From Escherichia phage chee24, in the sequence record NC_047885.1: 64,000 bases of DNA, one strand, 5' to 3'. The position numbers were made by a program, and so were the translations under genes. The notes below the pieces were generated by a model that searched no databases, was not told the DNA's origin, and saw nothing but the letters and a program-made list of their open reading frames with translations. Of the stretch, positions 468-22,128 are shown one piece after another. Numbering within the stretch: the first letter of the stretch is position 1; each line of letters begins with the position of its first letter.

Positions 468-546
468 TGGTAGATCGCCTGGGACTCGAACCCAGAACCT
501 TCCGATTAAAAGTCGGATGCTACTAAACCTATTGAGCTAGCGACCT
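468..546 (-). tRNA. tRNA-Lys (anticodon UUU), CCA encoded
   Basis: Hand-folded cloverleaf: 7-bp acceptor stem, T-arm CTGGG-TTCGAGT-CCCAG, anticodon stem TCCGA/TCGGA with loop CTTTTAA. Confidence 0.6.
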
Positions 547-547
547 A

Positions 548-715
548 TTAGTAGCCATTATATACTTCTTTAATAGAATAGACTTTTAGGTAAGAATGAT
601 TAATCCCAAACTCCGCCATTACTTCTTTTTCATTTTTTCCATAATGTGCAAGTAAGAATCTTGAGGTATTATTACCTAAACGTTTGTCACTTACTACTAA
701 TCGAAATACTTTCAT
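548..715 (-). CDS. small hypothetical protein (55 aa)
   Basis: Unlisted ORF below the 60-aa track cutoff; ATG at 715 preceded by AGAGGA; fills the gap between two tRNAs. Confidence 0.35.
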   Translation of the reverse strand: MKVFRLVVSDKRLGNNTSRFLLAHYGKNEKEVMAEFGINHSYLKVYSIKEVYNGY

Positions 716-739
716 TTCGAAATCCTCTATTAAAAGGGA

Positions 740-812
740 AGCGGGTGCAGGAATCGAACCTACCTCTTTCTAGCTTATGAGACTAGCGATCTCTACCAGA
801 GATCTAACCCGC
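740..812 (-). tRNA. tRNA-Met or Ile2 (anticodon CAU), no encoded CCA
   Basis: T-arm GTAGG-TTCGATT-CCTGC, anticodon stem CTAGT/GCTAG with loop CTCATAA; acceptor stem has one terminal mismatch. Confidence 0.55.
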
Positions 813-819
813 AATTGTT

Positions 820-895
820 TGGTCAGTGCGGCAGGACTCGAACCTGCGACCCGAAGCATCCAAGGCTCCCACGCTACCAACTGCGCTACGCACTG
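820..895 (-). tRNA. tRNA-Pro (anticodon UGG), CCA encoded
   Basis: Acceptor CAGTGCG/CGCACTG, T-arm GCAGG-TTCGAGT-CCTGC, anticodon loop CTTGGAT. Confidence 0.65.
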
Positions 896-925
896 TTAAT
901 TTTGTTAACTCACTTTATAAGATAT

Positions 926-954
926 ATTATACAGAGAATTAAGTAAAATAGCAA
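926..954 (-). promoter_or_regulatory. sigma70-like early promoter (minus sense TTGCTA-17-TATAAT) driving the tRNA-Pro/Met/Lys cluster
   Basis: Plus-strand ATTATA at 926-931 and TAGCAA at 949-954, 17-bp spacer, A/T-rich upstream element. Confidence 0.6.
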
Positions 955-970
955 ATGAATTTTTAATAAA

Positions 971-1092
971 TTTACTTATTATGTAGGCCGCCTGGAGGCT
1001 ACCAACCCCACGGCTGACAAAGAAGTTTGCGAGACTTCTCTTAAAAGCCAGAATAGACCCGCCGGTCTATCGGAACCTACATAATAAGTAAA
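971..1092. repeat. perfect 17-bp inverted repeat (TTTACTTATTATGTAGG / CCTACATAATAAGTAAA) flanking an 88-bp core
   Basis: Arms at 971-987 and 1076-1092 are exact reverse complements; core contains a further hairpin AGAAGT-TTGCGAG-ACTTCT. Confidence 0.8.
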
Positions 1093-1104
1093 CTTTATAG
1101 TGTC

Positions 1105-1226
1105 ATTCTAGGCAGGACTCGAACCTGCTATCACTTGTGCGGACTTACGAGAACCATTCTTTCACTCGAATCGAACGAGCTTCTGCCCTCGCCAAGCTGG
1201 TTTCCCCCATCAACCACGCTAGAATG
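1105..1226 (-). ncRNA. tRNA-like element, possible pseudo-tRNA or disrupted tRNA
   Basis: Canonical T-arm GCAGG-TTCGAGT-CCTGC at 1111-1128 and 7-bp acceptor-like pairing between 1105-1111 and 1219-1225, but span is too long and no clean anticodon arm was found. Confidence 0.25.
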
Positions 1227-1347
1227 TTAGATTGTTTTCAGTGCAAGAGTCCGAGTCTTGGACACGACCGCTTCGCAAGTACATAGGCAGCTTATCATGA
1301 GTCAGCACTTCCGAATTGCTAGCTCCGTGTTCTGCACTGAAATTTTA

Positions 1348-1695
1348 TTAGTTTAATCGTAAAGTATTATCTACTTCACCATTAATTGTTCGGCATTCCT
1401 CTGGAATTGCCGGGGTGGCCTTGTATTCCCACCATTCAGCACCGTCATATTCCCCACGTTCTAGCCAAGTTCCATCGGCAAACCATACATTACCATAAAG
1501 TAATTGTCCGCCGTATCCAGAATCATATTCAAAGTCTAGGTTATTAAGAAAATCCTCAATATCTTCTTCTGTATAGCCTAAAGGTAATACCCAGACTTTT
1601 TTGTCCCCATAATACCCAAATTCTATTTTAATACACTTAACTTCAGAATTAGTATTTTTTAAGGCAAGTAACAGCTCTTCTTTAGCATTACGCAT
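1348..1695 (-). CDS. hypothetical protein (115 aa)
   Basis: ORF in the minus-strand gene series; protein-like composition. Confidence 0.5.
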   Translation of the reverse strand: MRNAKEELLLALKNTNSEVKCIKIEFGYYGDKKVWVLPLGYTEEDIEDFLNNLDFEYDSGYGGQLLYGNVWFADGTWLERGEYDGAEWWEYKATPAIPEECRTINGEVDNTLRLN

Positions 1696-1720
1696 AATAT
1701 ATTCTCATACTGAATTAATT

Positions 1721-1797
1721 TGGCGCGACCGATGGGATTTGAACCCACATTCTCTCCCGTGACAGGGGAGTACCATTACCAAGCCAGCCCCGGTCGC
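1721..1797 (-). tRNA. tRNA-Asp (anticodon GUC), CCA encoded
   Basis: Acceptor GCGACCG/CGGTCGC, T-arm ATGGG-TTCAAAT-CCCAT, anticodon stem CTCCC/GGGAG with loop CTGTCAC. Confidence 0.65.
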
Positions 1798-1806
1798 ATA
1801 ATTTAT

Positions 1807-1992
1807 TTACTCAGCTTTGAGTTTTTCAATAGCTGCATTAAGTTCTTTAAGAAACTCTTTTCGTACATTAAGACGATTGAGACTTACTAGTATATCATGT
1901 TTAAGTTCTTCGATGTATTTCTTCTCAACTTCAATATTGTTGATAGTACTATCACGATGAACTTCTAGCTGCGCAATCACATTCTTGGACAT
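1807..1992 (-). CDS. small hypothetical protein (61 aa), predicted coiled coil
   Basis: ORF between tRNA genes; heptad-like charged/hydrophobic pattern. Confidence 0.4.
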   Translation of the reverse strand: MSKNVIAQLEVHRDSTINNIEVEKKYIEELKHDILVSLNRLNVRKEFLKELNAAIEKLKAE

Positions 1993-2094
1993 GCTTGTTT
2001 CCTCAGTTATTAATGAAAATGGTATCTGTGGCTGAATTCGATGTCAGCAATGATAGCTGGTTGGCTACCGGTTTACTTAACTCTACACAGAATT

Positions 2095-2172
2095 TGGCGG
2101 TTCCTGCTGGATTCGAACCAGCAACCCTCAACTTAACAAGATGCCGCTCTAACCAATTAGAGCTAAGGAACC
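2095..2172 (-). tRNA. tRNA, probably Asn (anticodon GUU), CCA encoded
   Basis: Acceptor GGTTCCT/AGGAACC, T-arm GCTGG-TTCGAAT-CCAGC, D-arm GCTC..GAGC; anticodon stem weak so anticodon is tentative. Confidence 0.5.
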
Positions 2173-2667
2173 ATATAAGTCAGAACTAGAGTTAATACGT
2201 CCTAGATATTTACTAAGATCCCTAGAATTTATACTAAACCACTCATGTTCTTTTAAATCTTTGAAATACTGGTGAATTAGTTTTTCACCTTTTCGTTTGT
2301 CAAACCAAAAAGACCAATGCTCTAACTTATAATCCCTATAGGGGGAATAAGTCTGATATTGAGCTAATCTCTCTTTTGGATTTTGACTCATACCTATTTT
2401 ATACTGATTTTTCCATGCAGGATTACTAATACAGTATACAAAACCTTCGGAAATAGGAAGTTTATTTTCCTGCTTAAACTTTATAAAGGAAAGTGCAGCA
2501 AGTTTTCTTGAATACATAGTATTCGTATTCTTTTTGGTATTACCATTGGTTCCTGAAAGATTTATATATTCTTCTATAAATCTCTGGATTAGTTCTGCGG
2601 TTATATAGAAGGGCTCATTAGTAACAACGCCTTTCTTTACCAAACTATCAAAAACTTTTGTATGCAC
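2149..2667 (-). CDS. T5orf172-domain protein (GIY-YIG-like nuclease fold, 172 aa)
   Basis: Motif GFVYCISNPAWKNQYKIGMS...YSPYRDYKLEHW typical of the T5orf172 family; 3' end overlaps the tRNA at 2095-2172. Confidence 0.65.
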   Translation of the reverse strand: MHTKVFDSLVKKGVVTNEPFYITAELIQRFIEEYINLSGTNGNTKKNTNTMYSRKLAALSFIKFKQENKLPISEGFVYCISNPAWKNQYKIGMSQNPKERLAQYQTYSPYRDYKLEHWSFWFDKRKGEKLIHQYFKDLKEHEWFSINSRDLSKYLGRINSSSDLYGSLALIG

Positions 2668-2688
2668 TACTTCTTTCCTTTAGTAATT

Positions 2689-2764
2689 TGGACGACCGCA
2701 TGAGATTTGAACTCACATAAAAAGGATTTGCAATCCTTCGCCTAAGCCATTCAGCCAACGGTCG
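2689..2764 (-). tRNA. tRNA-Cys (anticodon GCA), CCA encoded
   Basis: Acceptor CGACCGT/GCGGTCG, anticodon stem AAGGA/TCCTT with loop TTGCAAA, T-arm GTGAG-TTCAAAT-CTCAT. Confidence 0.65.
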
Positions 2765-2942
2765 ATTTATCTTGTTTTTCGAGATCTTCAAATTCTAAAT
2801 CATTGAAGTTCCCTAGAGTACGGGAGTAGAACCCGTCTCCTACGTCATAGCCTGATTTACCACAATCACACATTTTAAACTCTCTATAACGAGTGAAAAT
2901 ATGTTCAGAACCACAACACTTAAATTTAACTAACATTTTCAT
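2751..2942 (-). CDS. small Cys-rich protein (63 aa), possible zinc ribbon
   Basis: ORF with CC..H and CDC motifs. Confidence 0.45.
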   Translation of the reverse strand: MKMLVKFKCCGSEHIFTRYREFKMCDCGKSGYDVGDGFYSRTLGNFNDLEFEDLEKQDKSTVG

Positions 2943-3181
2943 TTAACACGCTCCGGTAAATCTTCGAGTTTATATTGGGTAGCCACATTAGCAGCATCTA
3001 GTAACAAACCCATATGTTTAAGAATCCTGGTGATAGCCTCGCCTTCTGCTTCTTCTACAAAGCAACGTAGATTAACGAAGTCAATACCACCATCCATACC
3101 AGAGAAAATGTTTAGTAAGCGAAACATTACCAGCTTACGTTCTTTCAATTCTTGTTCTGTCATGTTGCTTCTCCAGTTCAA
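2939..3181 (-). CDS. hypothetical protein (80 aa)
   Basis: ORF start overlaps the stop of the upstream ORF (coupled pair). Confidence 0.5.
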   Translation of the reverse strand: MNWRSNMTEQELKERKLVMFRLLNIFSGMDGGIDFVNLRCFVEEAEGEAITRILKHMGLLLDAANVATQYKLEDLPERVK

Positions 3182-3213
3182 TTTATGTAATTATTATATA
3201 GAACTTTTGGAAA

Positions 3214-3501
3214 CTAAGCAACTACATTTTTTAGGAATTTGATCCCTTTCTTTTTCTTCTTATATTTCCACGTTAATGGATTCTGTCGATTATGAACGCT
3301 TGAGATCTTTGTCTCGTCAAAGTTCTTCAATATCATGTAATCACAGGATAATTGTTCTAGTGGAATGTGATCACCGTCAAAAGCGTATACATAAGGCTGT
3401 TGACTAGCACGATAATGATAGACTTTGTTAATTCTACGTTTCAGCGACTTATCCGCGCAGTAAATAAAGAAGTTTTCAGGATGCATCAGCATCTCCTTCA
3501 A
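3214..3501 (-). CDS. hypothetical protein (95 aa)
   Basis: ORF in the minus-strand series. Confidence 0.5.
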   Translation of the reverse strand: MKEMLMHPENFFIYCADKSLKRRINKVYHYRASQQPYVYAFDGDHIPLEQLSCDYMILKNFDETKISSVHNRQNPLTWKYKKKKKGIKFLKNVVA

Positions 3502-3503
3502 TT

Positions 3504-3578
3504 TGGTGCACCCTGTTCGTATCGAACGAACCTCTCAAGCTCTTCAGGCAAGCGCTAATCCATCTCAGCTAAAGGTGC
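3504..3578 (-). tRNA. tRNA, probably Phe (anticodon GAA), CCA encoded
   Basis: Acceptor GCACCTT/AGGGTGC, D-arm GCTG..TAGC, perfect T-arm GTTCG-TTCGATA-CGAAC; anticodon stem has two U-U mismatches. Confidence 0.5.
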
Positions 3579-3584
3579 AAATTT

Positions 3585-3665
3585 TGGCAAACCCACTAGG
3601 ACTCGAACCTAGACCGTACGGTTTTGGAGACCGACATGCTGTCCAGTAACACTCTAGGAATGCAG
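3585..3665 (-). ncRNA. tRNA-like element with Trp-like anticodon loop (CTCCAAA) but no acceptor-stem pairing
   Basis: T-arm CTAGG-TTCGAGT-CCTAG and 3' CCA present; no complementary 5' strand found within tRNA distance. Confidence 0.3.
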
Positions 3666-3669
3666 AAAT

Positions 3670-3763
3670 TGGTACACCCACGGAGAATTGAACTCCGATT
3701 CTCAGATTGAACTCCGATTCTCAGATTGAAATCCTGATGTCCTAGCCATTAGACGATAGGTGT
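3670..3763 (-). tRNA. tRNA-Glu-like gene (anticodon UUC) with a 19-bp tandem duplication at the variable-loop position
   Basis: Removing one repeat copy gives a 75-nt cloverleaf (acceptor ACACCTA/TGGGTGT, D-arm GTCT-AATGGCTA-GGAC, anticodon stem TCAGG/TCTGA, T-arm CGGAG-TTCAATT-CTCCG); as encoded it is 94 nt. Confidence 0.45.
3687..3730. repeat. perfect 19-bp tandem duplication (ATTGAACTCCGATTCTCAG x2) plus a 6-bp partial third copy
   Basis: Exact copies at 3687-3705 and 3706-3724. Confidence 0.85.
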
Positions 3764-3771
3764 ATTAAATT

Positions 3772-3859
3772 TGGTGGGCGTTAATGGAGTCGAACCACTC
3801 GAGTCGCAATGACCAGGGATTTACAATCCCCTCCGCTACCACTTACGGAATAAACGCCC
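3772..3859 (-). tRNA. tRNA-Tyr (anticodon GUA), long variable arm, CCA encoded
   Basis: Acceptor GGGCGTT/AACGCCC, anticodon stem GGGGA/TCCCT with loop TTGTAAA, 88-nt length with extra arm. Confidence 0.6.
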
Positions 3860-3987
3860 ATATTTAGAAGCATTCAAATACTTGTTTAAACACTTTTAAA
3901 TATGTTTCCGAATTAGATAACTATTATACCAAGTTTTAAGGCACTGAGCAAGTCAAATTTTAAAGAACTTGCTCAGTGCTGTATTAG

Positions 3988-4263
3988 TTAGTCGAACTTA
4001 GGAGTGATAGTTAAGGAGAACGGAAGTTCGAAAACTTCTTCGCCCTCATTACTAACGGTAACTACACGACCTTTAAGTTCAGACATTAAAATATCAATAT
4101 CAGCTTTTGCATCTGGAGCCATGCCAGCTTCAATACATTTAGCTTTAACTTCCGGTAAAAGCTCTACGTTATAGAGATAGAGCCACTCAATCTCACCTTC
4201 CCAGTCTTCCCAGGATTTGCAGATTGCACTTTCAATACCAGTTGCTACAACACGATTTTGCAT
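3988..4263 (-). CDS. hypothetical protein (91 aa)
   Basis: ORF with promoter-like TTGCCT-18-TATAAT (minus sense) at about 4290-4345 upstream. Confidence 0.55.
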   Translation of the reverse strand: MQNRVVATGIESAICKSWEDWEGEIEWLYLYNVELLPEVKAKCIEAGMAPDAKADIDILMSELKGRVVTVSNEGEEVFELPFSLTITPKFD

Positions 4264-4353
4264 TAATTAACTCCTTCATCAATTTATATAACTATTATAC
4301 CAGAAATTTAAAGTAAAAGGCAAGTACATTTTTAAAAATTCTGTTTGGAGGAG

Positions 4354-4560
4354 CTAAACTCCAGATTTTTCGGCCAAGTCTAGACTAATAAGAGTTATAG
4401 CCATAATTGCTGCACCGTGTTCTTTTTCTCCGGTGTTTTTAGCAGAGTCTATAATATCCTTAATCTGTTCGTAATAACTTTTTACTTCTTGTTCAATGCC
4501 TGCCTCGGCTATCATGCCTTTAGCCATGAATCGTTGCATGGTAATTTCAGGATTAGCCAT
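4354..4560 (-). CDS. hypothetical protein (68 aa)
   Basis: ORF; start overlaps the stop of the 4553-4720 ORF. Confidence 0.5.
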   Translation of the reverse strand: MANPEITMQRFMAKGMIAEAGIEQEVKSYYEQIKDIIDSAKNTGEKEHGAAIMAITLISLDLAEKSGV

Positions 4561-4720
4561 GTTGTTTCTCCAGTTTCATTTTTAATAGTTTACAGATGAA
4601 ATCAACGTCTTCATCTGTGCCTAAGTCTCTATCCTCAAGGGTCGCCTTGAAGTTTTTCGTCAATTCCATGAGGATGACTTCCCTAGAACGACGTGTTGGC
4701 GGAGGTGGATGTCTATACAT
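4553..4720 (-). CDS. small hypothetical protein (55 aa)
   Basis: Unlisted ORF below the track cutoff, coupled to the downstream gene. Confidence 0.35.
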   Translation of the reverse strand: MYRHPPPPTRRSREVILMELTKNFKATLEDRDLGTDEDVDFICKLLKMKLEKQHG

Positions 4721-4735
4721 CTTATTTCCTTAATT

Positions 4736-4812
4736 TGGTAGGGGTGGTGGGATTCGAACCCACAAAACCTGAATTTTAAGTCCAGTACCTATGCCAATTC
4801 GATTACACCCCC
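4736..4812 (-). tRNA. tRNA with anticodon UAA (Leu-like, but short variable loop)
   Basis: Acceptor GGGGGTG/CACCCCT, T-arm GTGGG-TTCGAAT-CCCAC, anticodon stem CTGGA/TTCAG with loop CTTAAAA. Confidence 0.5.
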
Positions 4813-5107
4813 ATGTAATCAGTTTATTAGTTGATACATATTATAGCCTAAAGAAAACCCTACTACTAATCCTACGAACCAACCAATATAATAATCTTTT
4901 AATTTCACGGGTGTCAACCTCGTTCAATATCTAGAGAAATACCACAGGTAGGATTAATGCCTGTGCCTTTGCACGTCGGACAAACCCAGATATTACAGAA
5001 TGTATCCCCTGCTTCTGCATCAGAACTTTTCCAACTCCTAGACAGTTAGGACAGGCACATTCTTCTAGCTCTTGCTTGAGTTCTTGAAACTTAGACATAT
5101 AGTTTCC

Positions 5108-5296
5108 TTATTCAATTACTTTTGAGGCTTCAAGGGAGTCGATATAGTGTACGTTTTCTACCATGATCATATAATCTGCCACTTTATCCATAGCCTGAGC
5201 TTCAGAGGTAGCCCTGGCTAACCTATATCCTTTTTTATATTCATCCGGGTATTCCCTATCTGGAATAAACACAACACAAACTAGGTATAGTTCCAC
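5108..5296 (-). CDS. hypothetical protein (62 aa)
   Basis: ORF in the minus-strand series. Confidence 0.4.
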   Translation of the reverse strand: MELYLVCVVFIPDREYPDEYKKGYRLARATSEAQAMDKVADYMIMVENVHYIDSLEASKVIE

Positions 5297-5317
5297 TTGT
5301 AACCTCTCTAATCAAGA

Positions 5318-5395
5318 TGGTGGCTCCCCGAGGATTCGAACCTACGTACCTTCCGGTTATGAGCCGGATGCTCATACCATATGAGCTTGAGAACC
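5318..5395 (-). tRNA. tRNA-Met or Ile2 (anticodon CAU), CCA encoded
   Basis: Acceptor GGTTCTC/GGGAGCC, anticodon stem TCCGG/CCGGA with loop CTCATAA; T-stem imperfect. Confidence 0.55.
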
Positions 5396-5401
5396 AGAAT
5401 T

Positions 5402-5490
5402 TGGCGGAAGAAGTGGGAATCGAACCCACAAGGCTATATTTCAAACCGACAGATTAGCAATCTGCTGCAATACCGTTATGCTATTCTTCC
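5402..5490 (-). tRNA. tRNA-Ser (anticodon GCU), long variable arm, CCA encoded
   Basis: Acceptor GGAAGAA/TTCTTCC, anticodon stem GCAGA/TCTGT with loop TTGCTAA, T-arm GTGGG-TTCGATT-CCCAC, 89 nt. Confidence 0.6.
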
Positions 5491-5505
5491 GAATTTATAA
5501 GATAT

Positions 5506-5534
5506 ATTATATTAGAAATTTAGCTTCATAGCAA
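5506..5534 (-). promoter_or_regulatory. sigma70-like early promoter (minus sense TTGCTA-17-TATAAT) upstream of tRNA-Ser
   Basis: Plus-strand ATTATA 5506-5511 and TAGCAA 5529-5534; same conserved promoter family. Confidence 0.55.
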
Positions 5535-6030
5535 GAAAATTTTTCAAGTTTTCGGTAGACATCTCATCCACATCTACAGGAGAAACAAATCCATTTAATT
5601 GTCTAGCAAATTTTTCACCAGCAGGATCATTATCCCCAACAGCTACCAATTTAAAAGGTAGTAATTTCAATTGCTTTAACAACGCTTTTCCTGGAGAAGA
5701 ACCCAACATTGCCAGGGCTGGATAACCAGCGTTATGTAATGCTACGGCCTTAAATACAGATTCCGCAACCAATACTACTTTTTCATCCCCATTGAGAGTT
5801 TCCAGCCCCCATACACACTGTGTAGTAGAATAAGTAAAATACTTAGCTTCAAAAGGAGATTTACCATGACCTTTTGGAGCAGAAGGATTATAAGTCTGAT
5901 AGCCTCTCAACATCCCAGAGAAGTCATACAATGGGACTGTTAGCCATCCTTCCGGACTTAACCAGCAATGATATTTATCTGTATCAAACCCTCTAGATAA
6001 GAGATGTTCTGTTAGTTCATCAACAGTCAT
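5512..6030 (-). CDS. TOPRIM-domain protein, primase-like paralog lacking a zinc finger (172 aa)
   Basis: VVLVAESVFKAVAL and VAVGDNDPAG motifs (Glu plus DxD) align with the TOPRIM region of the primase at 37630-38520. Confidence 0.55.
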   Translation of the reverse strand: MTVDELTEHLLSRGFDTDKYHCWLSPEGWLTVPLYDFSGMLRGYQTYNPSAPKGHGKSPFEAKYFTYSTTQCVWGLETLNGDEKVVLVAESVFKAVALHNAGYPALAMLGSSPGKALLKQLKLLPFKLVAVGDNDPAGEKFARQLNGFVSPVDVDEMSTENLKNFLAMKLNF

Positions 6031-6058
6031 ATTAGATTCCTCTCAAATTTATAAATAT

Positions 6059-6087
6059 ATTATACAGAGGATTTAGCATTCAAGCAA
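6059..6087 (-). promoter_or_regulatory. sigma70-like early promoter (minus sense TTGCTT-17-TATAAT) for 5512-6030
   Basis: Plus-strand ATTATA 6059-6064 and AAGCAA 6082-6087. Confidence 0.55.
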
Positions 6088-6165
6088 TTGAATTTTTTAA
6101 CTTTTTAGAGGAAAATCACAGGATGCTTACGGGTAGCAGGTAAGTGGTCAGGACCGAAATTTGTG

Positions 6166-6195
6166 ACCCCACTAAAAATCTGGGGTCAATTTTTA
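6166..6195 (+). terminator. rho-independent terminator-like hairpin at the 5' edge of the plus-strand cassette
   Basis: Stem GACCCCA/TGGGGTC with 9-nt loop, followed by AATTTTTA. Confidence 0.5.
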
Positions 6196-6203
6196 AAGAC
6201 CCC

Positions 6204-6232
6204 TTGACATTTTTGCCGGGGTAGTGTAAAGT
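6204..6232 (+). promoter_or_regulatory. sigma70-like promoter (TTGACA-17-TAAAGT) for the plus-strand cassette
   Basis: Consensus -35 at 6204-6209, 17-bp spacer, -10 TAAAGT 6227-6232, AGGAGG RBS at 6280. Confidence 0.6.
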
Positions 6233-6295
6233 ATATGTTATGGATGAGTGATCAAAGAGACACACATTTTCTATATACTAGGAGGTGTCAAAAAA

Positions 6296-7275
6296 TGACA
6301 GAAGAAGTAGCTAAGAGTCCTGAAACCGTCGCTAGCGTAGCAGCAGAACTGCATCGTCACGAGGAATCAGATAAGAAAAAGTGGGAGAAAGTCAAAGCCT
6401 ACGAAGAAGAACATCGTGAACACGATGATAAAGATGAAGAAGATGACGATGATGAACATTGTCATAAATATGGAAAACATAAAATGCAAGAACCAGTAAA
6501 CGTATTTACTAATGGCTTCCCTGGCATGGGTGCATTCCCAGCTAACGCAAGTGCTTTCGGTGGAGAAGGTATGGGTCTATTCGGAGCTATCCTAATCGGT
6601 GCTCTATTAACAGGCGGATTTGGTGGTTTTGGTGGTTTTGGCCGTGGTGCTGGCGTTGCCGCTGAAGGGACTGCTGTGGACGCGATCCTTTCTAACCAAG
6701 ATACTGCAAGTATTCTAGCTGCAATCAATACTACTCGTACAGAAGCTAACCAGGGCACTGGGGCTGTTCTAAGCGCAGTAAACGGTGTGGGAGCTGCTCA
6801 AGCTGCTAGCACTCAGCAAGTTCTGACTACTATCTACGGTACAGGTGCTAATCTGTCAAACCAGATCTGTGCTGAAACTCGTAACGTTATTCAGGGTCAG
6901 TTCGATCTTTCTCGTCAGATGGATCAATCTTTCGCTGCTAACCAGATCGCACGTGCTCAAGATAAGTTTGACTCTGCTCAGATTGCTTTCCAGCAGTCTA
7001 TTCAGACCAATAACCAGTTTGCCGCTGTTCAGGCTCAGATGTGTGCTAACCAGAATGCTATAGAGCGTCAGCTTGCTGAATGTTGCTGTGAACTTCAGAC
7101 TGCGATCGCTGGTGTAACTACTGCGCGTATCCAGGACGAACTGAATGAATGCCGTCTGCGTGAAGCAATCGCTCAAGGTAGTGGTGCTAACGGTCAGGTA
7201 ATTAACCAAATCGCTGTAAGTCTTGGTGCTATCACTCAGACTCTGGCTGGTCTGCAGGCTAAACTGCCGGCTTAA
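6296..7275 (+). CDS. hypothetical protein (326 aa): acidic N-terminus, Gly-rich hydrophobic segment, Gln/Ala-rich C-terminal half
   Basis: Track ORF 6235-7275 trimmed to the ATG at 6296 behind AGGAGG; segment GMGLFGAILIGALLTGGFGGFGGFG looks like a glycine-zipper membrane helix; codons look more GC-rich than neighbours. Confidence 0.6.
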
Positions 7276-7296
7276 AATTAAGGGGAGGAGCCCATT

Positions 7297-7713
7297 ATGA
7301 GTAAATATGGTTTTGTAAACAACGGATTTAATCAACAAATGGGCTCCCAGCAGCCCGTTCCGGGTCTGGATAATCCTTACCTACAACAGTTGCAACAGCG
7401 TTTAGCAGAAGCGCAACAGATGCAGCAACAACTCCAGCAAAACCCTGGAAGTGTGAGTCCTATGCAAATGATGCAGCAAATGAGCGGGCAGTCGCAAATG
7501 CCTCAACAAATGCAGCAACAGGTGCCTCAGCAGCAAGTTCAGCAACAAACCCAACAACCGCAGGTTTCTGCGGAAGGACAGGCAGTACTAGCTCTTTTCG
7601 AAGATTTCGCAAAGACAGAGGATGGGAAACAGCTTGTATCACTTATGGGTAAGTTTAATAGCTTCTGCCAAAGCCAGGTTGCAAAAGCTCAAAATGGTGA
7701 TAATAACTCCTAA
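7297..7713 (+). CDS. Gln-rich low-complexity protein (138 aa)
   Basis: ATG behind GGGGAGGAG RBS; long QQ(M/L)QQ tracts. Confidence 0.55.
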   Translation: MSKYGFVNNGFNQQMGSQQPVPGLDNPYLQQLQQRLAEAQQMQQQLQQNPGSVSPMQMMQQMSGQSQMPQQMQQQVPQQQVQQQTQQPQVSAEGQAVLALFEDFAKTEDGKQLVSLMGKFNSFCQSQVAKAQNGDNNS

Positions 7714-7722
7714 GGAGGAATT

Positions 7723-7917
7723 ATGTGTTGCAGAAAATCTGTTTCGTGCTGCCCAATGCCTGTAGCACGTTGTTGCTCTCCAGCAATGTTTACACAAATA
7801 CCGGCGTTCAATCCCTTTGCCTTTAAGCCTACTCTTATCCTGCCCCCTAGAGTAGATTTTCAGTCAAGATTGGCCTCCCGTATGGGTGGTTGCTGTAACA
7901 AGAGTATATGGTTCTAA
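7723..7917 (+). CDS. small Cys-rich protein (64 aa) with four Cys-Cys doublets
   Basis: ATG behind AAGGAGG RBS; sequence MCCRKSVSCC..RCCS..GGCCNK. Confidence 0.5.
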   Translation: MCCRKSVSCCPMPVARCCSPAMFTQIPAFNPFAFKPTLILPPRVDFQSRLASRMGGCCNKSIWF

Positions 7918-7933
7918 AGAACCAATAATAAAA

Positions 7934-7966
7934 AGCCCCTAGTCGAAAGACTTAGGGGCTTTTCTC
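7934..7966 (+). terminator. rho-independent terminator ending the plus-strand cassette
   Basis: Stem AGCCCCTAGTC / GACTTAGGGGCT with GAAA loop, followed by TTTTCTC. Confidence 0.7.
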
Positions 7967-7975
7967 TTATCTTAA

Positions 7976-8014
7976 ATACAGAAAAGCCCTGCGCTCTCCA
8001 GGGAACGCAGGGCT
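7976..8014 (-). terminator. rho-independent terminator downstream of the SPFH gene
   Basis: Stem AGCCCTGCG/CGCAGGGCT; minus-sense T-tract from plus AGAAAA. Confidence 0.6.
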
Positions 8015-8038
8015 TACTTCGAATATTACGTGTGGGTA

Positions 8039-8986
8039 TTACTTGTTACGCATATCCATAATCATCTGGCCATCATAACCAGTGCCAACCACAGTCTGCG
8101 GTACACCACCTTGATACTTCTGAGCACGAATCATTTCAACTTCTAGTTGCTTCCAGCGAATCATCTCAGGAGTAATGGTACGTTGCAGAGCAGCGTTAGC
8201 TTCAGCTTCTTTCTTAGCTGCATACAGTTTAGCATCTGCATCACGTTCGTTTGCAATAGCTTGGTTGTTACGAGCTTCACGATCTGCTTCTGCTTGTTTA
8301 ACCTTCTGCTGTGCTTCTTGTTCAACGCGAGCTAATTCAGCTTTCGCAGCATTAACTTGTTCTTCGCGAACTTTGGTATTCTGTACCTGTTCCATAATTA
8401 CCGGTGGCAATGTAATATCCTGAAGGAACACTTGCTTAACTGTGTAACCATAGGGGCGTGCATACTCTTCAACTTCCTGTTGAATTGCAGTTTGCAATTG
8501 TGCTTGAATTTTAGCATCAAACAAATCTTGTGCTTTAGGTACAGACTTACCAAACTCACGAATAGTAGACAGTAATTTTTCAGTTACATACTTATCTAGA
8601 GCCTGATCTTGAGTACCCGCATTAATACGGTTGATCGGTGCCTTAGAACCATCAAACTGCAACATAACAGTCAGGTCAACAGTGGATTTAAACTTATCCT
8701 GGCTAGGAACCTGAAGTTTATCTAATTTTACAGCAATATCTTTTGTACTAAAAGTATCGAAAGATGCAAATGGGTTTACAAGATGGAAACCAGGTAATAC
8801 TGGGTTAGGATCTACTTTACCTAGAAATGTTTGGGTTTTAACCGTACCATCAGAAACAATAGTATATGAATTAAAAGCTAGGATTAAACCTGCTAAACCA
8901 ACTACAGCACCAATACTCCAACGTTTAATAGTGCGAATTACTTTTTGCTCAGAAGTCAGTTCTTTCATATTTTTAGTATTAGACAT
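8039..8986 (-). CDS. SPFH/band-7 (prohibitin/HflC-like) membrane protein (315 aa)
   Basis: N-terminal membrane anchor (WSIGAVVGLAGLILAF), SPFH-like core, long Ala/Glu/Gln-rich coiled-coil C-terminus. Confidence 0.65.
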   Translation of the reverse strand: MSNTKNMKELTSEQKVIRTIKRWSIGAVVGLAGLILAFNSYTIVSDGTVKTQTFLGKVDPNPVLPGFHLVNPFASFDTFSTKDIAVKLDKLQVPSQDKFKSTVDLTVMLQFDGSKAPINRINAGTQDQALDKYVTEKLLSTIREFGKSVPKAQDLFDAKIQAQLQTAIQQEVEEYARPYGYTVKQVFLQDITLPPVIMEQVQNTKVREEQVNAAKAELARVEQEAQQKVKQAEADREARNNQAIANERDADAKLYAAKKEAEANAALQRTITPEMIRWKQLEVEMIRAQKYQGGVPQTVVGTGYDGQMIMDMRNK

Positions 8987-9020
8987 ATATTTCCTTTGTT
9001 TTAGTTACAGTTAATAAAAT

Positions 9021-9095
9021 TGGCCGAGGTGACAGGATTCGAACCTGCATAAAGGAATTTAGAAGACTCCTGCCTCTCCCTTAGACTACACCCCG
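9021..9095 (-). tRNA. tRNA-Arg (anticodon UCU), CCA encoded
   Basis: Acceptor CGGGGTG/CACCTCG, anticodon stem GGAGT/ATTCC with loop CTTCTAA, T-arm GCAGG-TTCGAAT-CCTGT. Confidence 0.6.
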
Positions 9096-9597
9096 TTTAA
9101 GTATTTTTAAGAACTCTCGTAAAAACTCTTAAAAATACAGACGATACCGGGAGAGTCATAAGTCTCACTCATTAAGTATTTCAAGACAAAATACAGTAAC
9201 GTCTATTATTTTCCAGTTTAAGTCAAGGTGACTTAGTGGTTATGTCCTGCGGTATACTGAGGACTAGGTTAGGTTAGGGTCATGACTCCCCACCTTTTTG
9301 CTGCTACTCAACAGGAGTTATCGCGAATTACCTGTGCTATTGTGCACCATTAGTGGCATCTCTCATGCCAGCATTTCCCACTTTGTGGATAGTTTGAAAA
9401 ACTACTCCGATATGGAGAAAGAACTTCACTATCCTAGAATACCTTCTAAAGTTCTTCTTTAGCCTGGACATAGTTAAATCGTAATAAAACTATTCAGCAG
9501 ACTGGTTGGTTAGTCTGGAACCAACTACCGCGTGGTTTAGGCAGTGCGCAACTAACCTCGGAAGCTTTTACATTAAAAGCACCAGTTATCCAGTTCT

Positions 9598-9670
9598 TAC
9601 CGACCGTAGGATTCGAACCTACATCTTCCACCAGTTACGGCTTGATAATACCGTTTTATACTAGATCGGC
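9598..9670 (-). ncRNA. tRNA-like element (canonical acceptor stem and T-arm, irregular core)
   Basis: Acceptor GCCGATC/GGTCGGT and T-arm GTAGG-TTCGAAT-CCTAC; no standard anticodon arm identified. Confidence 0.3.
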
Positions 9671-9893
9671 AGTGTTACTACATAAGTGATTTCCACACCC
9701 CACTATCAGTAAATTAGAGAAGAGTTTAGGGGAGAGGTTTCAGACGCCCCATTTTACACGTTCTAGCCACTAACCGGGATTGCCGCCCCCTGTGTACTAG
9801 TTTTCCAACTAACCCACCGACTCTATTCAATGCGCTCCGGTTGGGATTCTGCACTCAGCGTAATCGGCTCGCTGTTCTCTAATTTATGAATAT

Positions 9894-9922
9894 ATTATAC
9901 AGAATTTATAAGCATTTAGCAA
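9894..9922 (-). promoter_or_regulatory. sigma70-like early promoter (minus sense TTGCTA-17-TATAAT)
   Basis: Plus-strand ATTATA 9894-9899 and TAGCAA 9917-9922; points into the 9100-9700 region, tRNA-Arg and the SPFH gene. Confidence 0.55.
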
Positions 9923-9930
9923 ATAAATTT

Positions 9931-10374
9931 TTAATTAAATTCGCCAGCAATCTGAGCAGCAGTACCACCATCATAACGCCCAGGAAATTCTTCCTTAATC
10001 GCTTTCATCAGCATACCTTTTGTAATTCCAGGGTTTAGCTTAACTAATTCTGCAAAGTATTTACGAATCTCAGTATCAGATAACTGAGGAGGCAGATACT
10101 CCTGCAACCACTTATTTAGAATGTATTCATACTGAGTGGACTGCAAGCTATAACTATCAAGATCTTGACCATGAAGTTTAGCTTTCATCTGGTTAATGCT
10201 TTTTAGTTGAGCTTTGAGATAAGACACAAATTGTTCAGAAGTGATGAAATCTTTATCAATACGCTGAAGATCCCCGATTATGGTCTGATAGCTTTTAGCG
10301 ACTTCTTTATCAGAACCATTAAACTTAGAATCCTGCAAAGCTCTACGCAAAACATCTAAAATATTCTCTTCCAT
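9931..10374 (-). CDS. GatB/YqeY-domain protein (147 aa)
   Basis: C-terminal YLPPQLSDTEI...GRYDGGTAAQIA resembles the YqeY family signature. Confidence 0.55.
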   Translation of the reverse strand: MEENILDVLRRALQDSKFNGSDKEVAKSYQTIIGDLQRIDKDFITSEQFVSYLKAQLKSINQMKAKLHGQDLDSYSLQSTQYEYILNKWLQEYLPPQLSDTEIRKYFAELVKLNPGITKGMLMKAIKEEFPGRYDGGTAAQIAGEFN

Positions 10375-11385: not shown

Positions 11386-11415
11386 AATAGCCTCGTTTCA
11401 TCAATTTAAAAATAT

Positions 11416-11444
11416 ATTATACAGAAAACTTAATAAATTAGCAA
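11416..11444 (-). promoter_or_regulatory. sigma70-like early promoter (minus sense TTGCTA-17-TATAAT)
   Basis: Plus-strand ATTATA 11416-11421 and TAGCAA 11439-11444. Confidence 0.55.
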
Positions 11445-11827
11445 ATACATTTTTAAATTGTGAAACTAGTAAACCGATAAACAGCCTAGAGGCGCCACAG
11501 GCCATATCTTACGAGCCATGTACCTTTGATCTAGGGTTTGAATCATCAACGAATACTTTGCATCTTTTAGCTTTAGAAGTTTAGAAGTTTGAGTTCTTTA
11601 AACTTTTCAGCTTTCATACTTAAATGTTGATCTTTGAAGTTGTGTCGGTAATATCAACGACGCTTTGTTTTTACGTGTCAGATTAAATGTCTGATGTAAT
11701 AAACATAATCTCCAATAGATTATACTTTATAGTATGGTCAGCGGTCTTATTTAACCTCGTATTTCAACCGCTGCTGCGAGGTAAGATGCTTGGGCTTTCG
11801 TCTACCGATTTACTAGCTTTTAAATTA

Positions 11828-21914: not shown

Positions 21915-21987
21915 AAATAACACTCCTATAGTGTACTTCGCTAACAGAGGATCAACAAAAAGATCTTGTTTATCAACTTACAAATAT

Positions 21988-22016
21988 ATTATACCAGTAT
22001 ATGCAGTAAAAAGCAA
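21988..22016 (-). promoter_or_regulatory. sigma70-like promoter (minus sense TTGCTT-17-TATAAT) for phoH
   Basis: Plus-strand ATTATA 21988-21993 and AAGCAA 22011-22016. Confidence 0.55.
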
Positions 22017-22128
22017 CTACAATTTTAAATAAGCCTATGATATTGCATTTAAATAAAAAATTTGCTTGCTTTTAACGGGAAATGTATGGTATTAGATAAT
22101 CATTTTATACCGCGTACATAGGCGCGTG

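What the first reader, a model, noticed from the sequence alone, without database searches (positions are those of the whole stretch)
9096..9597. About 500 bp without any ORF of 60 aa or more and without tRNA signal, downstream of an early promoter
The promoter at 9894-9922 reads through a tRNA-like element into this stretch before reaching tRNA-Arg and the SPFH gene. The region contains local hairpins such as TTGGTT-AGTCTGG-AACCAA but no convincing start codon with an RBS. In a genome this densely packed, that suggests a non-coding RNA, a degraded gene, or a cis-acting DNA site.
Basis: seen in the sequence. Interest (0 to 1): 0.5.

Follow-up and report, generated by a model that had tools for sequence, protein, structure and literature searches.

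The report
RNAX: phage T5's large structured RNA
The 500-bp gene-free stretch is the 3' two-thirds of RNAX, a roughly 790-nt folded non-coding RNA of T5-like phages. GenBank has listed it since 2004 as a "stable RNA with unknown functions", and it looks like the giant GOLLD and ROOL RNAs that other phages keep next to their tRNA genes.

Summary
The window is a T5-like phage, 100% identical to pork27. The finding (9096-9597) is real, but its limits are arbitrary. The ORF-free stretch is 8987-9930, and the functional unit is on the minus strand: promoter P16-17 (9922-9894), then RNAX (about 9887 to 9096), then tRNA-Arg, then an SPFH gene.

The homologous segment is annotated "rnaX, stable RNA with unknown functions" in the T5, BF23 and phage 5 GenBank records. 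Rfam 15 has no model for it.

Across Tequintavirus, Epseptimavirus, Sugarlandvirus, Hongcheonvirus, Erwinia phage KEY and Proteus phage PM135 it shows strong compensatory base-pair changes. Examples are a 14-bp arm that carries the "tRNA-like" element at its tip, a long-range closing helix, several hairpins and a 3' three-way junction. It also has invariant motifs, including an AGUCAUGAC loop found in 42 of 42 sequences. Peripheral modules are shuffled between lineages.

No small ORF is conserved.

RNAX lies inside the deletion of the viable mutant T5st0, so it is dispensable in the laboratory.

Best reading: a trans-acting accessory structured RNA whose 3' end is cut by RNase P at the start of tRNA-Arg. 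In context and architecture it resembles GOLLD and ROOL, but it is not homologous to them. The entity is already known. Its fold, its spread and this analogy appear undescribed in the literature I could search. Its function is still unknown.

The parts
9894..9922 (-). Early sigma-70 promoter P16-17 (-35 TTGCTA at 9922-9917, -10 TATAAT at 9899-9894)
   Evidence: Consensus scan gives 10 of 12 matches. The site is homologous to the 'promoter P16-17' features of BF23, phage 5 and T5.
9096..9887 (-). RNAX, the whole non-coding RNA. The 5' end is about 9887 by distance from the -10 hexamer, or 9880 by transfer of the BF23 annotation. The 3' end is at 9096, directly next to tRNA-Arg +1.
   Evidence: 97.6% identical over 795 nt to BF23 misc_RNA rnaX, 'stable RNA with unknown functions'. 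T5 rnaX is at 40848-41566. There is no Rfam family match.
9707..9887 (-). Optional 5' domain of RNAX. It is absent in T5 and replaced by an HNH endonuclease gene in JLBYU43, smaug and S147.
   Evidence: Alignment with T5. Annotations and Pfam HNH_3 hit.
9700..9705 (-). P1 5' strand (UAGUGG). It pairs with 9234-9239 (CCACUA). This long-range helix closes the core.
   Evidence: Kept in 42 sequences. DU_PP_V has two compensatory pairs (UUACGG/CCGUGA) and K150049 restores a pair. RNAalifold also predicts it.
9677..9690 (-). P2 5' strand. It pairs with 9581-9594, giving a 14-position arm that includes conserved C.C and G.G mismatches.
   Evidence: 7 of 14 pairs change on both sides across 22 sequences. 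For the four-helix set counted together (P2, acceptor, T arm, P3), cells are 86.7% paired against 36-40% when slid, and 0 of 500 shuffles reach the score. The held-out PM135 homolog keeps the arm with new pairs.
9599..9670 (-). tRNA-like module at the tip of P2. The acceptor stem and T arm are good, but the anticodon and D arms are degenerate.
   Evidence: Rfam tRNA scores 34.5 bits against a threshold of 29. ARAGORN calls 'Ser(act)' with the anticodon at position 37. The anticodon differs or is not called in orthologs. Acceptor mismatches occur in most sequences. The module is replaced by other hairpins in K150049, L060, UTK0010 and PM135.
9564..9580 (-). P3 hairpin (GCUUUU-AAUGU-AAAAGC)
   Evidence: 2 of 6 pairs change on both sides. 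One pair appears as UA, CG and AU.
9539..9558 (-). Hairpin with the conserved loop UU(G/U)CGCA
   Evidence: Compensatory variants are seen by eye: GGCAG/CUGCC in smaug and GACAG/CUGUC in phiR201. This helix was not counted formally.
9506..9524 (-). An alternative pairing is CAGACU/AGUCUG.
   Evidence: Present in the sequence. Kept in Tequintavirus and smaug-type phages only, and replaced by another module in other lineages. No covariation is available.
9387..9460 (-). Module A. Its inner hairpin is UAGAA/UUCUA, and GGAUAG/CUAUCC forms a flanking helix. The module is shared with Sugarlandvirus and YZU-L1 at a different place in their RNAs.
   Evidence: The variants UAGGC/GCCUA (Kpn02) and UAGUC/GACUA (YZU-L1) are compensatory. 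T5 has a compensatory indel, GGUAG/CUACC.
9354..9370 (-). Hairpin UGGCAU-GAGAG-AUGCCA
   Evidence: 3 of 6 pairs change on both sides (T5 UCACG/CGUGA, L037 UCACAU/AUGUGA), and 96% of cells are paired.
9311..9335 (-). Hairpin ACAGG/CCUGU with the conserved loop ..CGCGAUAACU
   Evidence: 95.7% of cells are paired, with one-sided changes only. YZU-L1 has a 9-bp helix of different sequence around the same loop.
9271..9295 (-). Stem-loop presenting the invariant loop AGUCAUGA (9280-9287), which contains the self-complementary UCAUGA
   Evidence: AGUCAUGAC is present in 42 of 42 sequences. The stem has 4 of 8 pairs with changes on both sides.
9244..9264 (-). Hairpin GUCCU...AGGAC
   Evidence: 2 of 5 pairs change on both sides. 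KEY and YZU-L1 have different stems at the same place.
9221..9233 (-). Hairpin AGUCA-CCU-UGACU, followed by the conserved UAAACUGGAA
   Evidence: 97% of cells are paired but the sequence is nearly invariant. In T5 this element is duplicated on either side of an 87-nt inserted hairpin.
9139..9204 (-). Three-way junction. The closing helix is AGACG/CGUCU plus UACU/GGUA. The two hairpins are 9176-9194 and 9153-9170. The conserved junction is CUUAAU (9171-9176).
   Evidence: Win, smaug, S147 and SE3 recover the closing helix plus two hairpins. The other variants keep S1 and the terminal hairpin, but their junction region folds differently. Helix sequences differ by lineage: GACGG/CCGUC, GACAG/CUGUC, GACUAG/CUAGUC.
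9101..9138 (-). Terminal 17-bp hairpin ending 5 nt before tRNA-Arg. Its 5' strand (9132-9137) can alternatively pair with 9207-9212.
   Evidence: RNAalifold predicts it, with 97% of cells paired. At the one variable column, the upstream partner is paired in 19 of 20 sequences and the hairpin partner in 11 of 20.
9021..9095 (-). tRNA-Arg(TCT) with encoded CCA. Its 5' end defines the 3' end of RNAX.
   Evidence: ARAGORN, Rfam 49.3 bits, and annotated tRNAR in BF23 and T5.

Best explanation
The stretch is the 3' two-thirds of RNAX, a non-coding, heavily folded RNA of about 790 nt made from the minus strand of T5-like phages.

Shown:
- It is homologous to the annotated rnaX of T5, BF23 and phage 5.
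- It sits between early promoter P16-17 and tRNA-Arg, with no predicted terminator.
- It has a covariation-supported architecture. A long-range helix P1 closes a multi-arm core. One arm (P2) carries a tRNA-like module. The core is followed by a hairpin, a three-way junction and a terminal hairpin.
- It combines invariant motifs with exchangeable peripheral modules.
- It has no conserved ORF.
- It is deleted in the viable mutant T5st0.

Inferred:
- RNAX is transcribed early as the 5' part of a precursor RNAX-tRNA-Arg-SPFH mRNA.
- RNase P cutting at the 5' end of tRNA-Arg releases it, leaving the terminal hairpin as a 3' protective cap. That would explain why it accumulates as a stable RNA.
- It then acts in trans as a folded RNA particle with an accessory, host- or condition-dependent role tied to the phage tRNA island.
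- The invariant self-complementary AGUCAUGA loop and other invariant single-stranded motifs are contact sites, for tertiary folding, self-association or a host factor.

Functionally it is best compared with GOLLD and ROOL, which are large phage RNAs kept next to tRNA genes. The biochemical activity remains unknown.
For: Identity: 100% match to pork27. rnaX features are annotated in AJ604530, AJ604531 and AY543070. RNAX is 97.6% identical to BF23 over 795 nt.

Structure:
- Alignment A2 (22 sequences): 86.7% of cells paired against 36-40% when slid, 16 pairs with changes on both sides, covariation 0.343 against 0.161, 0 of 500 shuffles.
- Alignment A4 (14 sequences): 94.6% against 32-46%, 9 such pairs, 0 of 500 shuffles.
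- P1 compensation in DU_PP_V.
- Win, smaug, S147 and SE3 recover the closing helix plus two hairpins; the other variants keep S1 and the terminal hairpin, but their junction region folds differently.
- The sense strand folds at -169.4 kcal/mol, z = -3.4.
- The G-U pairs in P2 would be A.C on the other strand.

Family: covariance model R1 finds every T5-like locus at 105-173 bits. In about 50 unrelated loci it finds only real tRNAs, at 31 bits or less. It also finds a held-out homolog in Proteus phage PM135 at 68.6 bits, E = 4e-15, about 500 nt upstream of its tRNA-Arg.

Non-coding: all 7 ORFs of 20 aa or more are broken in relatives.

Invariant loop: 42 of 42 sequences.

Dispensability: the T5st0 junction maps to window positions of about 1824-10211.

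Analogy: GOLLD and ROOL are encoded by phages or prophages and often lie near tRNA islands. tRNAs are sometimes found inside GOLLD. They have conserved and variable halves. Their self-association uses symmetric, palindromic or invariant kissing loops. ROOL is non-essential (PMC12286853).
Against: - No expression data were available here. 'Stable RNA' rests on the depositors' GenBank note, and I could not read the primary papers.
- The RNase P release step, the trans action and any self-association are inferred.
- The shuffle controls ignore phylogeny, and the sequences fall into a few clades. I chose the helices partly by eye on the same sequences.
- The middle of the finding (about 9390-9540) has only lineage-restricted or anecdotal support.
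- In some Epseptimavirus and Sugarlandvirus phages an ORF lies between the RNAX 3' hairpin and tRNA-Arg, so RNase P cannot define the 3' end there.
- Loss in T5st0 shows there is no essential role.
Confidence: 0.8

Rival explanations
1. A cis-acting leader. On this reading the folded RNA exists only to control processing or yield of the downstream tRNA-Arg and translation or stability of the SPFH mRNA. One possible mechanism is the alternative pairing of the terminal hairpin's 5' strand. The RNA would have no function once cut off.
For: RNAX is co-transcribed with tRNA-Arg and SPFH and no terminator is predicted. The terminal hairpin ends 5 nt before tRNA +1. The alternative pairing 9207-9212/9132-9137 is kept in 19 of 20 sequences, against 11 of 20 for the hairpin partner at the only variable column. 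The RNAX-to-tRNA-Arg order is kept even in PM135 and DU_PP_V.
Against: About 600-1300 nt of covarying multi-arm structure is far more than a leader needs. In S147, polluks, YZU-L1 and Sugarlandvirus, ORFs of 330-510 nt separate the 3' hairpin from tRNA-Arg. The depositors describe it as a stable RNA in its own right.
Confidence: 0.1
2. Evolutionary debris. On this reading the region holds decayed tRNA genes and scars of homing-endonuclease traffic in the tRNA island. It is transcribed but functionless.
For: The tRNA-like module is degenerate, with a variable or uncallable anticodon and acceptor mismatches. The composition is mosaic and modules are shuffled. HNH genes insert next to it or replace its 5' domain. 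The region is deleted in viable T5st0.
Against: Compensatory changes maintain helices across genera. A 9-nt loop is invariant in 42 of 42 sequences while its stem varies. The element is retained from Tequintavirus to Novosibvirus.
Confidence: 0.05
3. Several very small proteins fill the region.
For: ORFs of 23-54 aa exist on both strands. Some annotators call 'hypothetical proteins' here, for example P27_0079 and the phanotate calls in Kpn02.
Against: None of the 7 ORFs of 20 aa or more stays intact in T5, SE3, smaug, L037, K150049, phiR201 and KEY, because of frameshifts and stops. Substitutions come as base-pair compensations. Other annotators leave the same stretch empty.
Confidence: 0.02
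4. A cis-acting DNA element, such as a nick site, an origin, or a recombination or packaging signal.
For: T5 DNA carries site-specific nicks at GCGC-type sites (note in the T5 record). A GCGC sits in the loop at 9546-9549.
Against: The annotated nick is elsewhere, downstream of the SPFH gene. The GCGC is not conserved: phiR201 and L037 have UUUCGCA. The G-U-containing covariation is strand-specific and typical of RNA. The region can be deleted.
Confidence: 0.03

Closest known systems
rnaX / RNAX of phages T5, BF23 and phage 5 (GenBank AY543070, AJ604530, AJ604531)
   Same: It is the same locus and the same sequence: 97.6% to BF23 over the full length, and 92-99% to T5 over RNAX positions 165-795. 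It has the same promoter (P16-17) and the same 3' neighbour (tRNA-Arg).
   Different: The window's version is the BF23 type. T5 lacks about 150 nt at the 5' end and carries an extra 87-nt hairpin flanked by a direct repeat of about 25 nt. The records give no structure and no function.
GOLLD RNA (Rfam RF01998)
   Same: Both are phage-encoded and sit in or beside a tRNA island. Both can contain a tRNA(-like) element. Both are 600-1300 nt, with a conserved part and a variable part, many helices and junctions, and an invariant or palindromic loop of the kind that mediates GOLLD self-association. Function is unknown in both. GOLLD facts are from PMC12286853.
   Different: There is no covariance-model match, even at E up to 10, and no shared sequence motifs. 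The hosts differ (Enterobacterales siphophages). Oligomerisation of RNAX is untested.
ROOL RNA (Rfam RF03087)
   Same: Both are phage or prophage RNAs near tRNA islands, abundant yet non-essential (PMC12286853). RNAX is likewise deleted in viable T5st0.
   Different: There is no Rfam match. The architecture is unrelated. Nanocage formation by RNAX is untested.
tRNA (RF00005) and tRNA-like modules inside larger RNAs (tmRNA, bacterial Y RNA YrlA; from general knowledge)
   Same: The element at 9599-9670 has a 7-bp acceptor stem and a canonical T arm, and it passes the Rfam tRNA threshold.
   Different: It is embedded at the tip of a 14-bp helix. Its anticodon arm is degenerate or variable, its acceptor stem has mismatches in most orthologs, and other hairpins replace it in some lineages. 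There is no tmRNA or Y RNA model match.
Other T5 'stable RNAs' of the tRNA region: RNAI, RNAIII, RNAIV, RNA1, RNA2H, rna2 (AY692264)
   Same: They come from the same genomic island and the same annotators, and the same class label implies unknown function.
   Different: They are 103-172 nt long. RNAX is 4-7 times larger and is the only one analysed here.

Membership tests
RNAX (rnaX) of T5-like phages | Lies between early promoter P16-17 and tRNA-Arg(TCT), upstream of the SPFH-domain gene, on the same strand | tested here: met
   Promoter at 9922-9894, tRNA-Arg at 9021-9095, SPFH ORF at 8039-8986. The layout is the same in BF23, phage 5 and T5.
RNAX (rnaX) of T5-like phages | Nucleotide homology to the annotated rnaX over its length | tested here: met
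   97.6% to BF23 and 96.9% to phage 5 over 795-805 nt. T5 is 92-99% identical over positions 165-795.
RNAX (rnaX) of T5-like phages | Accumulates as a discrete stable RNA in infected cells | not testable with these tools
   Only the GenBank note 'stable RNA with unknown functions' is available. No paper in the searchable library mentions it.
GOLLD RNA (RF01998) | Match to the family covariance model | tested here: not met
   No hit at E up to 1 over 12 kb, nor at E up to 10 over 951 nt.
GOLLD RNA (RF01998) | Phage-encoded, beside a tRNA island, may enclose a tRNA. More than 600-800 nt, with a conserved part and a variable part. | tested here: met
   15 tRNA genes lie in window positions 468-9671. 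The tRNA-like module is embedded. Lengths are 720-1300 nt with shuffled modules. The criteria are from PMC12286853.
GOLLD / ROOL | Protein-free homo-oligomeric assembly (nanocage) | not testable with these tools
   The only hint is an invariant self-complementary loop, AGUCAUGA.
ROOL RNA (RF03087) | Match to the family covariance model | tested here: not met
   No hit.
tRNA (element 9599-9670) | Rfam tRNA model score at or above the gathering score | tested here: met
   34.5 bits against a threshold of 29.
tRNA (element 9599-9670) | Canonical anticodon arm with an anticodon conserved among orthologs | tested here: not met
   ARAGORN puts the anticodon ACT at position 37. Orthologs read ACT, TCA, CGA or TAG, or are not called at all in 18 of 27.
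tRNA (element 9599-9670) | Fully paired acceptor stem; a free-standing gene | tested here: not met
   Pair 1-72 is G.A in 12 of 22 sequences and pair 5-68 is unpaired in 14 of 22. The element is clamped by helix P2 with 6-nt and 4-nt linkers.
Small protein-coding genes | Reading frame conserved in relatives | tested here: not met
   0 of 7 ORFs are intact beyond near-identical relatives.

The most novel reading that the evidence does not exclude
RNAX may be a third, independent family of large 'ornate' phage RNAs of the GOLLD/ROOL kind. On this reading it is a tRNA-island-associated RNA that self-associates through its invariant self-complementary AGUCAUGA loop, as a dimer or a higher assembly. 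It carries a tRNA(-like) module as cargo, a processing cassette or a decoy. It gives an accessory advantage, for example against host systems that target tRNA or translation. Because it lives in the classic model phage T5 on E. coli K-12, and an 8-kb deletion mutant lacking it already exists, the long-open question of what such giant phage RNAs do would become directly testable by genetics.
Probability: 0.2. Interest if true: 0.85.

Novelty: already known. Interest (0 to 1): 0.55.

Why it matters
GOLLD, ROOL and OLE became prominent in 2025, when cryo-EM showed protein-free cages and dimers. Their functions remain unknown, and their natural hosts are hard to work with.

RNAX has been in the T5 GenBank record for about 20 years as an unexplained "stable RNA". 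It is absent from Rfam. The searchable literature never connects it to that class.

This analysis shows several things:
- RNAX is a large modular RNA with covariation support.
- It is conserved across at least six lineages of Demerecviridae.
- It has an embedded tRNA-like arm and an invariant self-complementary loop.
- It is dispensable in T5st0.

Together these make it a tractable candidate for learning what tRNA-island-associated giant phage RNAs do.

There is also a practical annotation point. Pipelines currently scatter spurious "hypothetical proteins" and "tRNA-Ser/Sec/OTHER" calls over this locus in hundreds of T5-like genomes.

Tried and rejected
- Rfam 15 at permissive thresholds found only tRNA hits and noise.
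- Literature searches for RNAX or rnaX with T5 gave nothing relevant. The primary T5 papers are not in the library.
- IMG/VR pattern scans returned mostly the same isolate genomes plus chance hits. The single metagenome scan gave 4 true T5-like contigs and about 16 chance matches, roughly the number expected at random.
- An all-against-all column covariation screen on a MAFFT alignment was swamped by clade-correlated false pairs. I replaced it with helix-by-helix tests.
- The MAFFT alignment of the 3' three-way junction is out of structural register between lineages, so RNAalifold recovers only the flanking hairpins there. I used per-lineage folding instead.
- I dropped the candidate hairpin GUGC/GCAC (9338-9352). 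It competes with the better-conserved ACAGG/CCUGU helix and is absent in KEY.
- An intramolecular kissing partner for the AGUCAUGA loop (UUAUGA in the loop at 9157-9162) exists only in the window's lineage, so I did not adopt it.
- No similarity to any complete E. coli genome was found, so RNAX is neither host-derived nor prophage-borne.
- The 120-kb viral contig behind L036 matched the 3'-hairpin pattern by chance. BLAST and the model find no homology.
Full report
WHAT THE WINDOW IS. The region 8900-10000 is 100% identical to Bacteriophage T5-like pork27 (MF431731, genus Tequintavirus). It matches 572 phage records, nearly all T5-like phages of Salmonella, Escherichia and Klebsiella. The window begins in the phage's tRNA island, with 15 tRNA calls between 468 and 9671, all on the minus strand.

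CHECK OF THE OBSERVATION. In 9096-9597 the longest ORFs are 54 aa (+) and 45 aa (-), and no tRNA is called inside. The stretch without any ORF of 60 aa or more on either strand is really 8987-9930 (944 nt). That is the longest such stretch in a window that is 90% covered by ORFs of this size. The promoter-like site at 9922-9894 on the minus strand (TTGCTA, 17 nt, TATAAT) is the best in the neighbourhood. No intrinsic terminator is predicted between it and the SPFH gene. Its limits, however, are just the edges of tRNA-Arg (9021-9095) and of a doubtful "tRNA-Ser(act)" (9597-9671).

IT ALREADY HAS A NAME. The GenBank records of the BF23 and phage 5 tRNA regions (AJ604530, AJ604531) annotate the homologous 784-785 nt as misc_RNA "rnaX: RNAX, stable RNA with unknown functions". 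In those records it runs from "promoter P16-17" to the first base of tRNA-Arg. The T5 reference record (AY543070) has the same feature at 40848-41566. The window's copy is 97.6% identical to BF23 over 795 nt. T5 itself lacks about 150 nt near the 5' end. It also has an extra 87-nt hairpin flanked by a direct repeat of the AGUCACCUUGAC-UAAACUGGAA element. The finding is therefore the 3' 500 nt of RNAX (window 9096 to about 9880-9887, minus strand). I found no paper in the searchable library that discusses RNAX. Rfam 15 has no matching family, even at E up to 10. Only the tRNA model hits, on tRNA-Arg and on the tRNA-like element at 34.5 bits.

IT IS NOT CODING. All seven ORFs of 20 aa or more, on either strand of the 611-nt core, are broken by frameshifts or stops in T5, SE3, smaug, L037, K150049, phiR201 or KEY, while the nucleotide sequence stays alignable. 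Different annotators either leave the locus empty or fill it with mutually inconsistent "hypothetical proteins" and "tRNA-Ser/Sec/OTHER" calls.

IT IS A FOLDED RNA. I collected 42 distinct core sequences. They come from these groups:
- Tequintavirus
- Epseptimavirus (smaug, S147, K150049, phiR201, YZU-L1 and others)
- Sugarlandvirus (Kpn02, Roth49, K7_rec11)
- Hongcheonvirus (DU_PP_V)
- Erwinia phage KEY

Numbering below uses core position c, where window position = 9707 - c.

(a) Helix P2 and the tRNA-like module. A 14-position helix, P2 (9690-9677 with 9594-9581), clamps the base of the tRNA-like element. Seven of its pairs change on both sides across 22 sequences. For P2 together with the acceptor stem, T arm and hairpin P3, 86.7% of cells are paired, against 36-40% when the partner is slid by 1-3 columns. 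Sixteen pairs change on both sides, against a shuffle mean of 9.0. The covariation score is 0.343 against 0.161, and 0 of 500 shuffles reach it. Pairs such as U-G, U-A and C-G at two P2 positions fit only the minus-strand transcript.

(b) The centre of the finding. Four helices in the centre give 94.6% paired cells against 32-46% when slid, 9 pairs with changes on both sides, and 0 of 500 shuffles. They are the 9370-9354 hairpin, ACAGG/CCUGU, the stem at 9295-9271 and the 9264-9244 hairpin.

(c) The closing helix P1. A long-range helix, P1 (9705-9700 UAGUGG with 9239-9234 CCACUA), closes the core. DU_PP_V has UUACGG/CCGUGA, which is two compensatory pairs.

(d) The 3' end. The 3' 120-160 nt of eleven divergent variants were folded separately. 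Win, smaug, S147 and SE3 recover the closing helix plus two hairpins. The other variants keep S1 and the terminal hairpin, but their junction region folds differently. The sequences differ between lineages: GACGG/CCGUC, GACAG/CUGUC, GACUAG/CUAGUC.

(e) Stability. The sense strand is more stable than shuffles (-169.4 kcal/mol, z = -3.4) and more stable than the antisense strand.

Caveats. The shuffle control ignores phylogeny. The sequences fall into a few clades. I chose several helices by eye on these same sequences.

THE "tRNA-LIKE ELEMENT" BELONGS TO THE SAME RNA. It sits at the tip of P2, joined by linkers AACACU and AAGA. Its T arm and acceptor stem are good. However, acceptor pair 1-72 is G.A in 12 of 22 sequences and pair 5-68 is unpaired in 14 of 22. 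ARAGORN reads different anticodons in different phages (ACT, TCA, CGA, TAG) or fails to call it at all, in 18 of 27. In K150049, L060, UTK0010 and Proteus phage PM135, unrelated hairpins replace it. It is a structural module rather than a decoding tRNA, at least in most lineages.

CONSERVED CORE, SHUFFLED PERIPHERY. Some motifs are invariant or nearly so across all lineages:
- GGGGUGUSGAA
- GAUAACU (occurs twice)
- AAACCAC
- the loop AGUCAUGA, with AGUCAUGAC present in 42 of 42 sequences
- AACCAC-AGUCACCYUGACU-UAAACUGGAA
- CUUAAU
- the terminal hairpin

Between these motifs, whole modules are present, absent or in a different order in different phages. The RNA therefore ranges from about 720 nt (T5) to about 1270 nt (Sugarlandvirus). 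The 5' domain (9887-9707) is optional. T5 lacks it, and JLBYU43, smaug and S147 have an HNH endonuclease gene there instead.

FAMILY TEST. A covariance model of P2, the tRNA-like module and P3 (R1) scores 105-173 bits, full length, on every T5-like locus held. Elsewhere it scores at most 31 bits, and only on genuine tRNAs. That includes about 50 unrelated control loci. It then found a homolog that was not used to build it, in Proteus phage PM135 (genus Novosibvirus): 68.6 bits, E = 4e-15, with new compensatory P2 pairs. This homolog lies downstream of the YqeY-like gene and about 500 nt upstream of tRNA-Arg(tct). In PM135 the AGUCAUGAC motif lies upstream of the P2 module, so the order of elements differs. 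I did not pursue this.

DISPENSABILITY. The record of the viable deletion mutant T5st0 (AY692264) places the deletion junction between tRNA-Asp and a truncated YqeY-like gene. Mapped onto the window, the deletion spans about 1824-10211. It therefore removes RNAX, its promoter, tRNA-Arg and the SPFH gene. RNAX is not needed for growth on laboratory E. coli.

HOW IT MOST LIKELY WORKS. The shown facts are the promoter, the lack of a terminator, the position directly against tRNA-Arg +1, the fold, the invariant motifs, the absence of coding potential, and the dispensability.

The rest is inferred. I infer early transcription as a precursor RNAX-tRNA-Arg-SPFH. RNase P then cuts at the tRNA 5' end, which is standard for bacterial tRNA precursors. 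This leaves the 17-bp terminal hairpin near the 3' end as protection against exonucleases, which would explain a "stable RNA". After that, RNAX would act in trans as a folded particle.

The invariant loop contains the self-complementary hexamer UCAUGA. In GOLLD, ROOL and OLE, symmetric kissing loops that are palindromic or invariant hold the oligomers together (PMC12286853). This makes self-association a reasonable but untested idea.

One more observation is that the 5' strand of the terminal hairpin can pair instead with 9212-9207. At the only variable column, that upstream partner is complementary in 19 of 20 sequences, while the hairpin partner is complementary in 11 of 20. This hints at two conformations, possibly linked to tRNA-Arg processing. 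The evidence is one column.

COMPARISON WITH KNOWN FAMILIES. As an entity this is RNAX, which is already annotated. As a kind of RNA it resembles GOLLD and ROOL in several ways:
- It is phage-encoded.
- It lies in a tRNA island.
- It is large and has many helices.
- It has a conserved part and a variable part.
- A tRNA(-like) element can sit inside it.
- It is non-essential.
- Its function is unknown.

It is not a member of either family, because it matches neither model. Nothing like it occurs in complete E. coli genomes.

VERDICT. The object is already known by name but is essentially uncharacterised. What this analysis adds is a covariation-supported architecture, the spread across Demerecviridae, the point that the tRNA-like call is part of the RNA, the T5st0 dispensability argument, and the parallel with GOLLD and ROOL. 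Interest is moderate (0.55). It would be high if RNAX proves to be a self-assembling RNA of the GOLLD/ROOL kind in a genetically tractable phage.

Noticed in passing
window 896-1347: This is another ORF-poor stretch, between tRNA-Pro and the ORF upstream of tRNA-Asp. It aligns with the part of T5st0 that is annotated with promoter P13a and two further 'stable RNAs', RNAIV (103 nt) and rna2 (125 nt). T5 also has RNAI, RNAIII, RNA1 and RNA2H elsewhere in the island. Rfam finds nothing there.
   Followed up: partly
window 9207-9212 versus 9132-9137 and 9101-9106: There is alternative pairing of the terminal hairpin's 5' strand. At the one variable column the upstream partner covaries (GC 12, AU 6, GU 1), while the hairpin partner is mismatched in 9 of 20 sequences. 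This could be a conformational switch next to the tRNA-Arg processing site.
   Followed up: partly
L122 (Proteus phage PM135) 8690-9855: An unannotated gap of about 1.1 kb lies between the YqeY-like gene and tRNA-Arg. It contains an RNAX-like P2/P3 module at 9240-9348, with a plain hairpin in place of the tRNA-like element. The AGUCAUGAC motif is at 9185, upstream of P2, so the element order appears permuted relative to T5.
   Followed up: partly
L005 (T5) around 4986-5051; window equivalent about 9221-9233: T5 and one metagenomic relative (L098) carry an 87-nt inserted hairpin. It is flanked by a direct repeat of about 25 nt of AGUCACCUUGAC(U/A)UAAACUGGAA, which looks like a duplication-insertion event inside the RNA.
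   Followed up: no
L113 311-793, L006 2171-2653, L117 294-791 and 1379-1888: Mobile-looking ORFs flank RNAX in some phages. An HNH_3 endonuclease gene replaces the 5' domain. A 169-aa ORF with no Pfam hit sits between the RNAX 3' hairpin and tRNA-Arg in S147, polluks and YZU-L1.
   Followed up: partly
L116 (Klebsiella phage vB_Kpn_AM_K6, PP355768, 261 kb, filed under Straboviridae): This record contains a Sugarlandvirus-type RNAX locus with the typical neighbours: cell-wall hydrolase, tRNA-Arg and tRNA-Met. It may be a chimeric or co-assembled sequence of two phages.
   Followed up: no
window 9546-9549: A GCGC, the core of the T5 nick-site consensus quoted in the T5 record, sits in the conserved hairpin loop UUGCGCA. 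It is not conserved in phiR201 or L037 (UUUCGCA), and the annotated nick lies elsewhere.
   Followed up: partly
window 3670-3763 and 3772-3859: The tRNA-Glu call is unusually long at 94 nt. The neighbouring tRNA-Tyr scores best against the tRNA-Sec model, below its threshold. I did not examine these further.
   Followed up: no
window 21924-22284, 11410-11686 and 4813-5107: These are further stretches without any ORF of 60 aa or more on either strand. I did not examine them.
   Followed up: no
window 1824-10211: This whole block corresponds to the segment missing from the viable mutant T5st0. It holds 10 tRNA genes, RNAX, the SPFH gene and several ORFs. All of it is therefore accessory under laboratory conditions.
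   Followed up: yes
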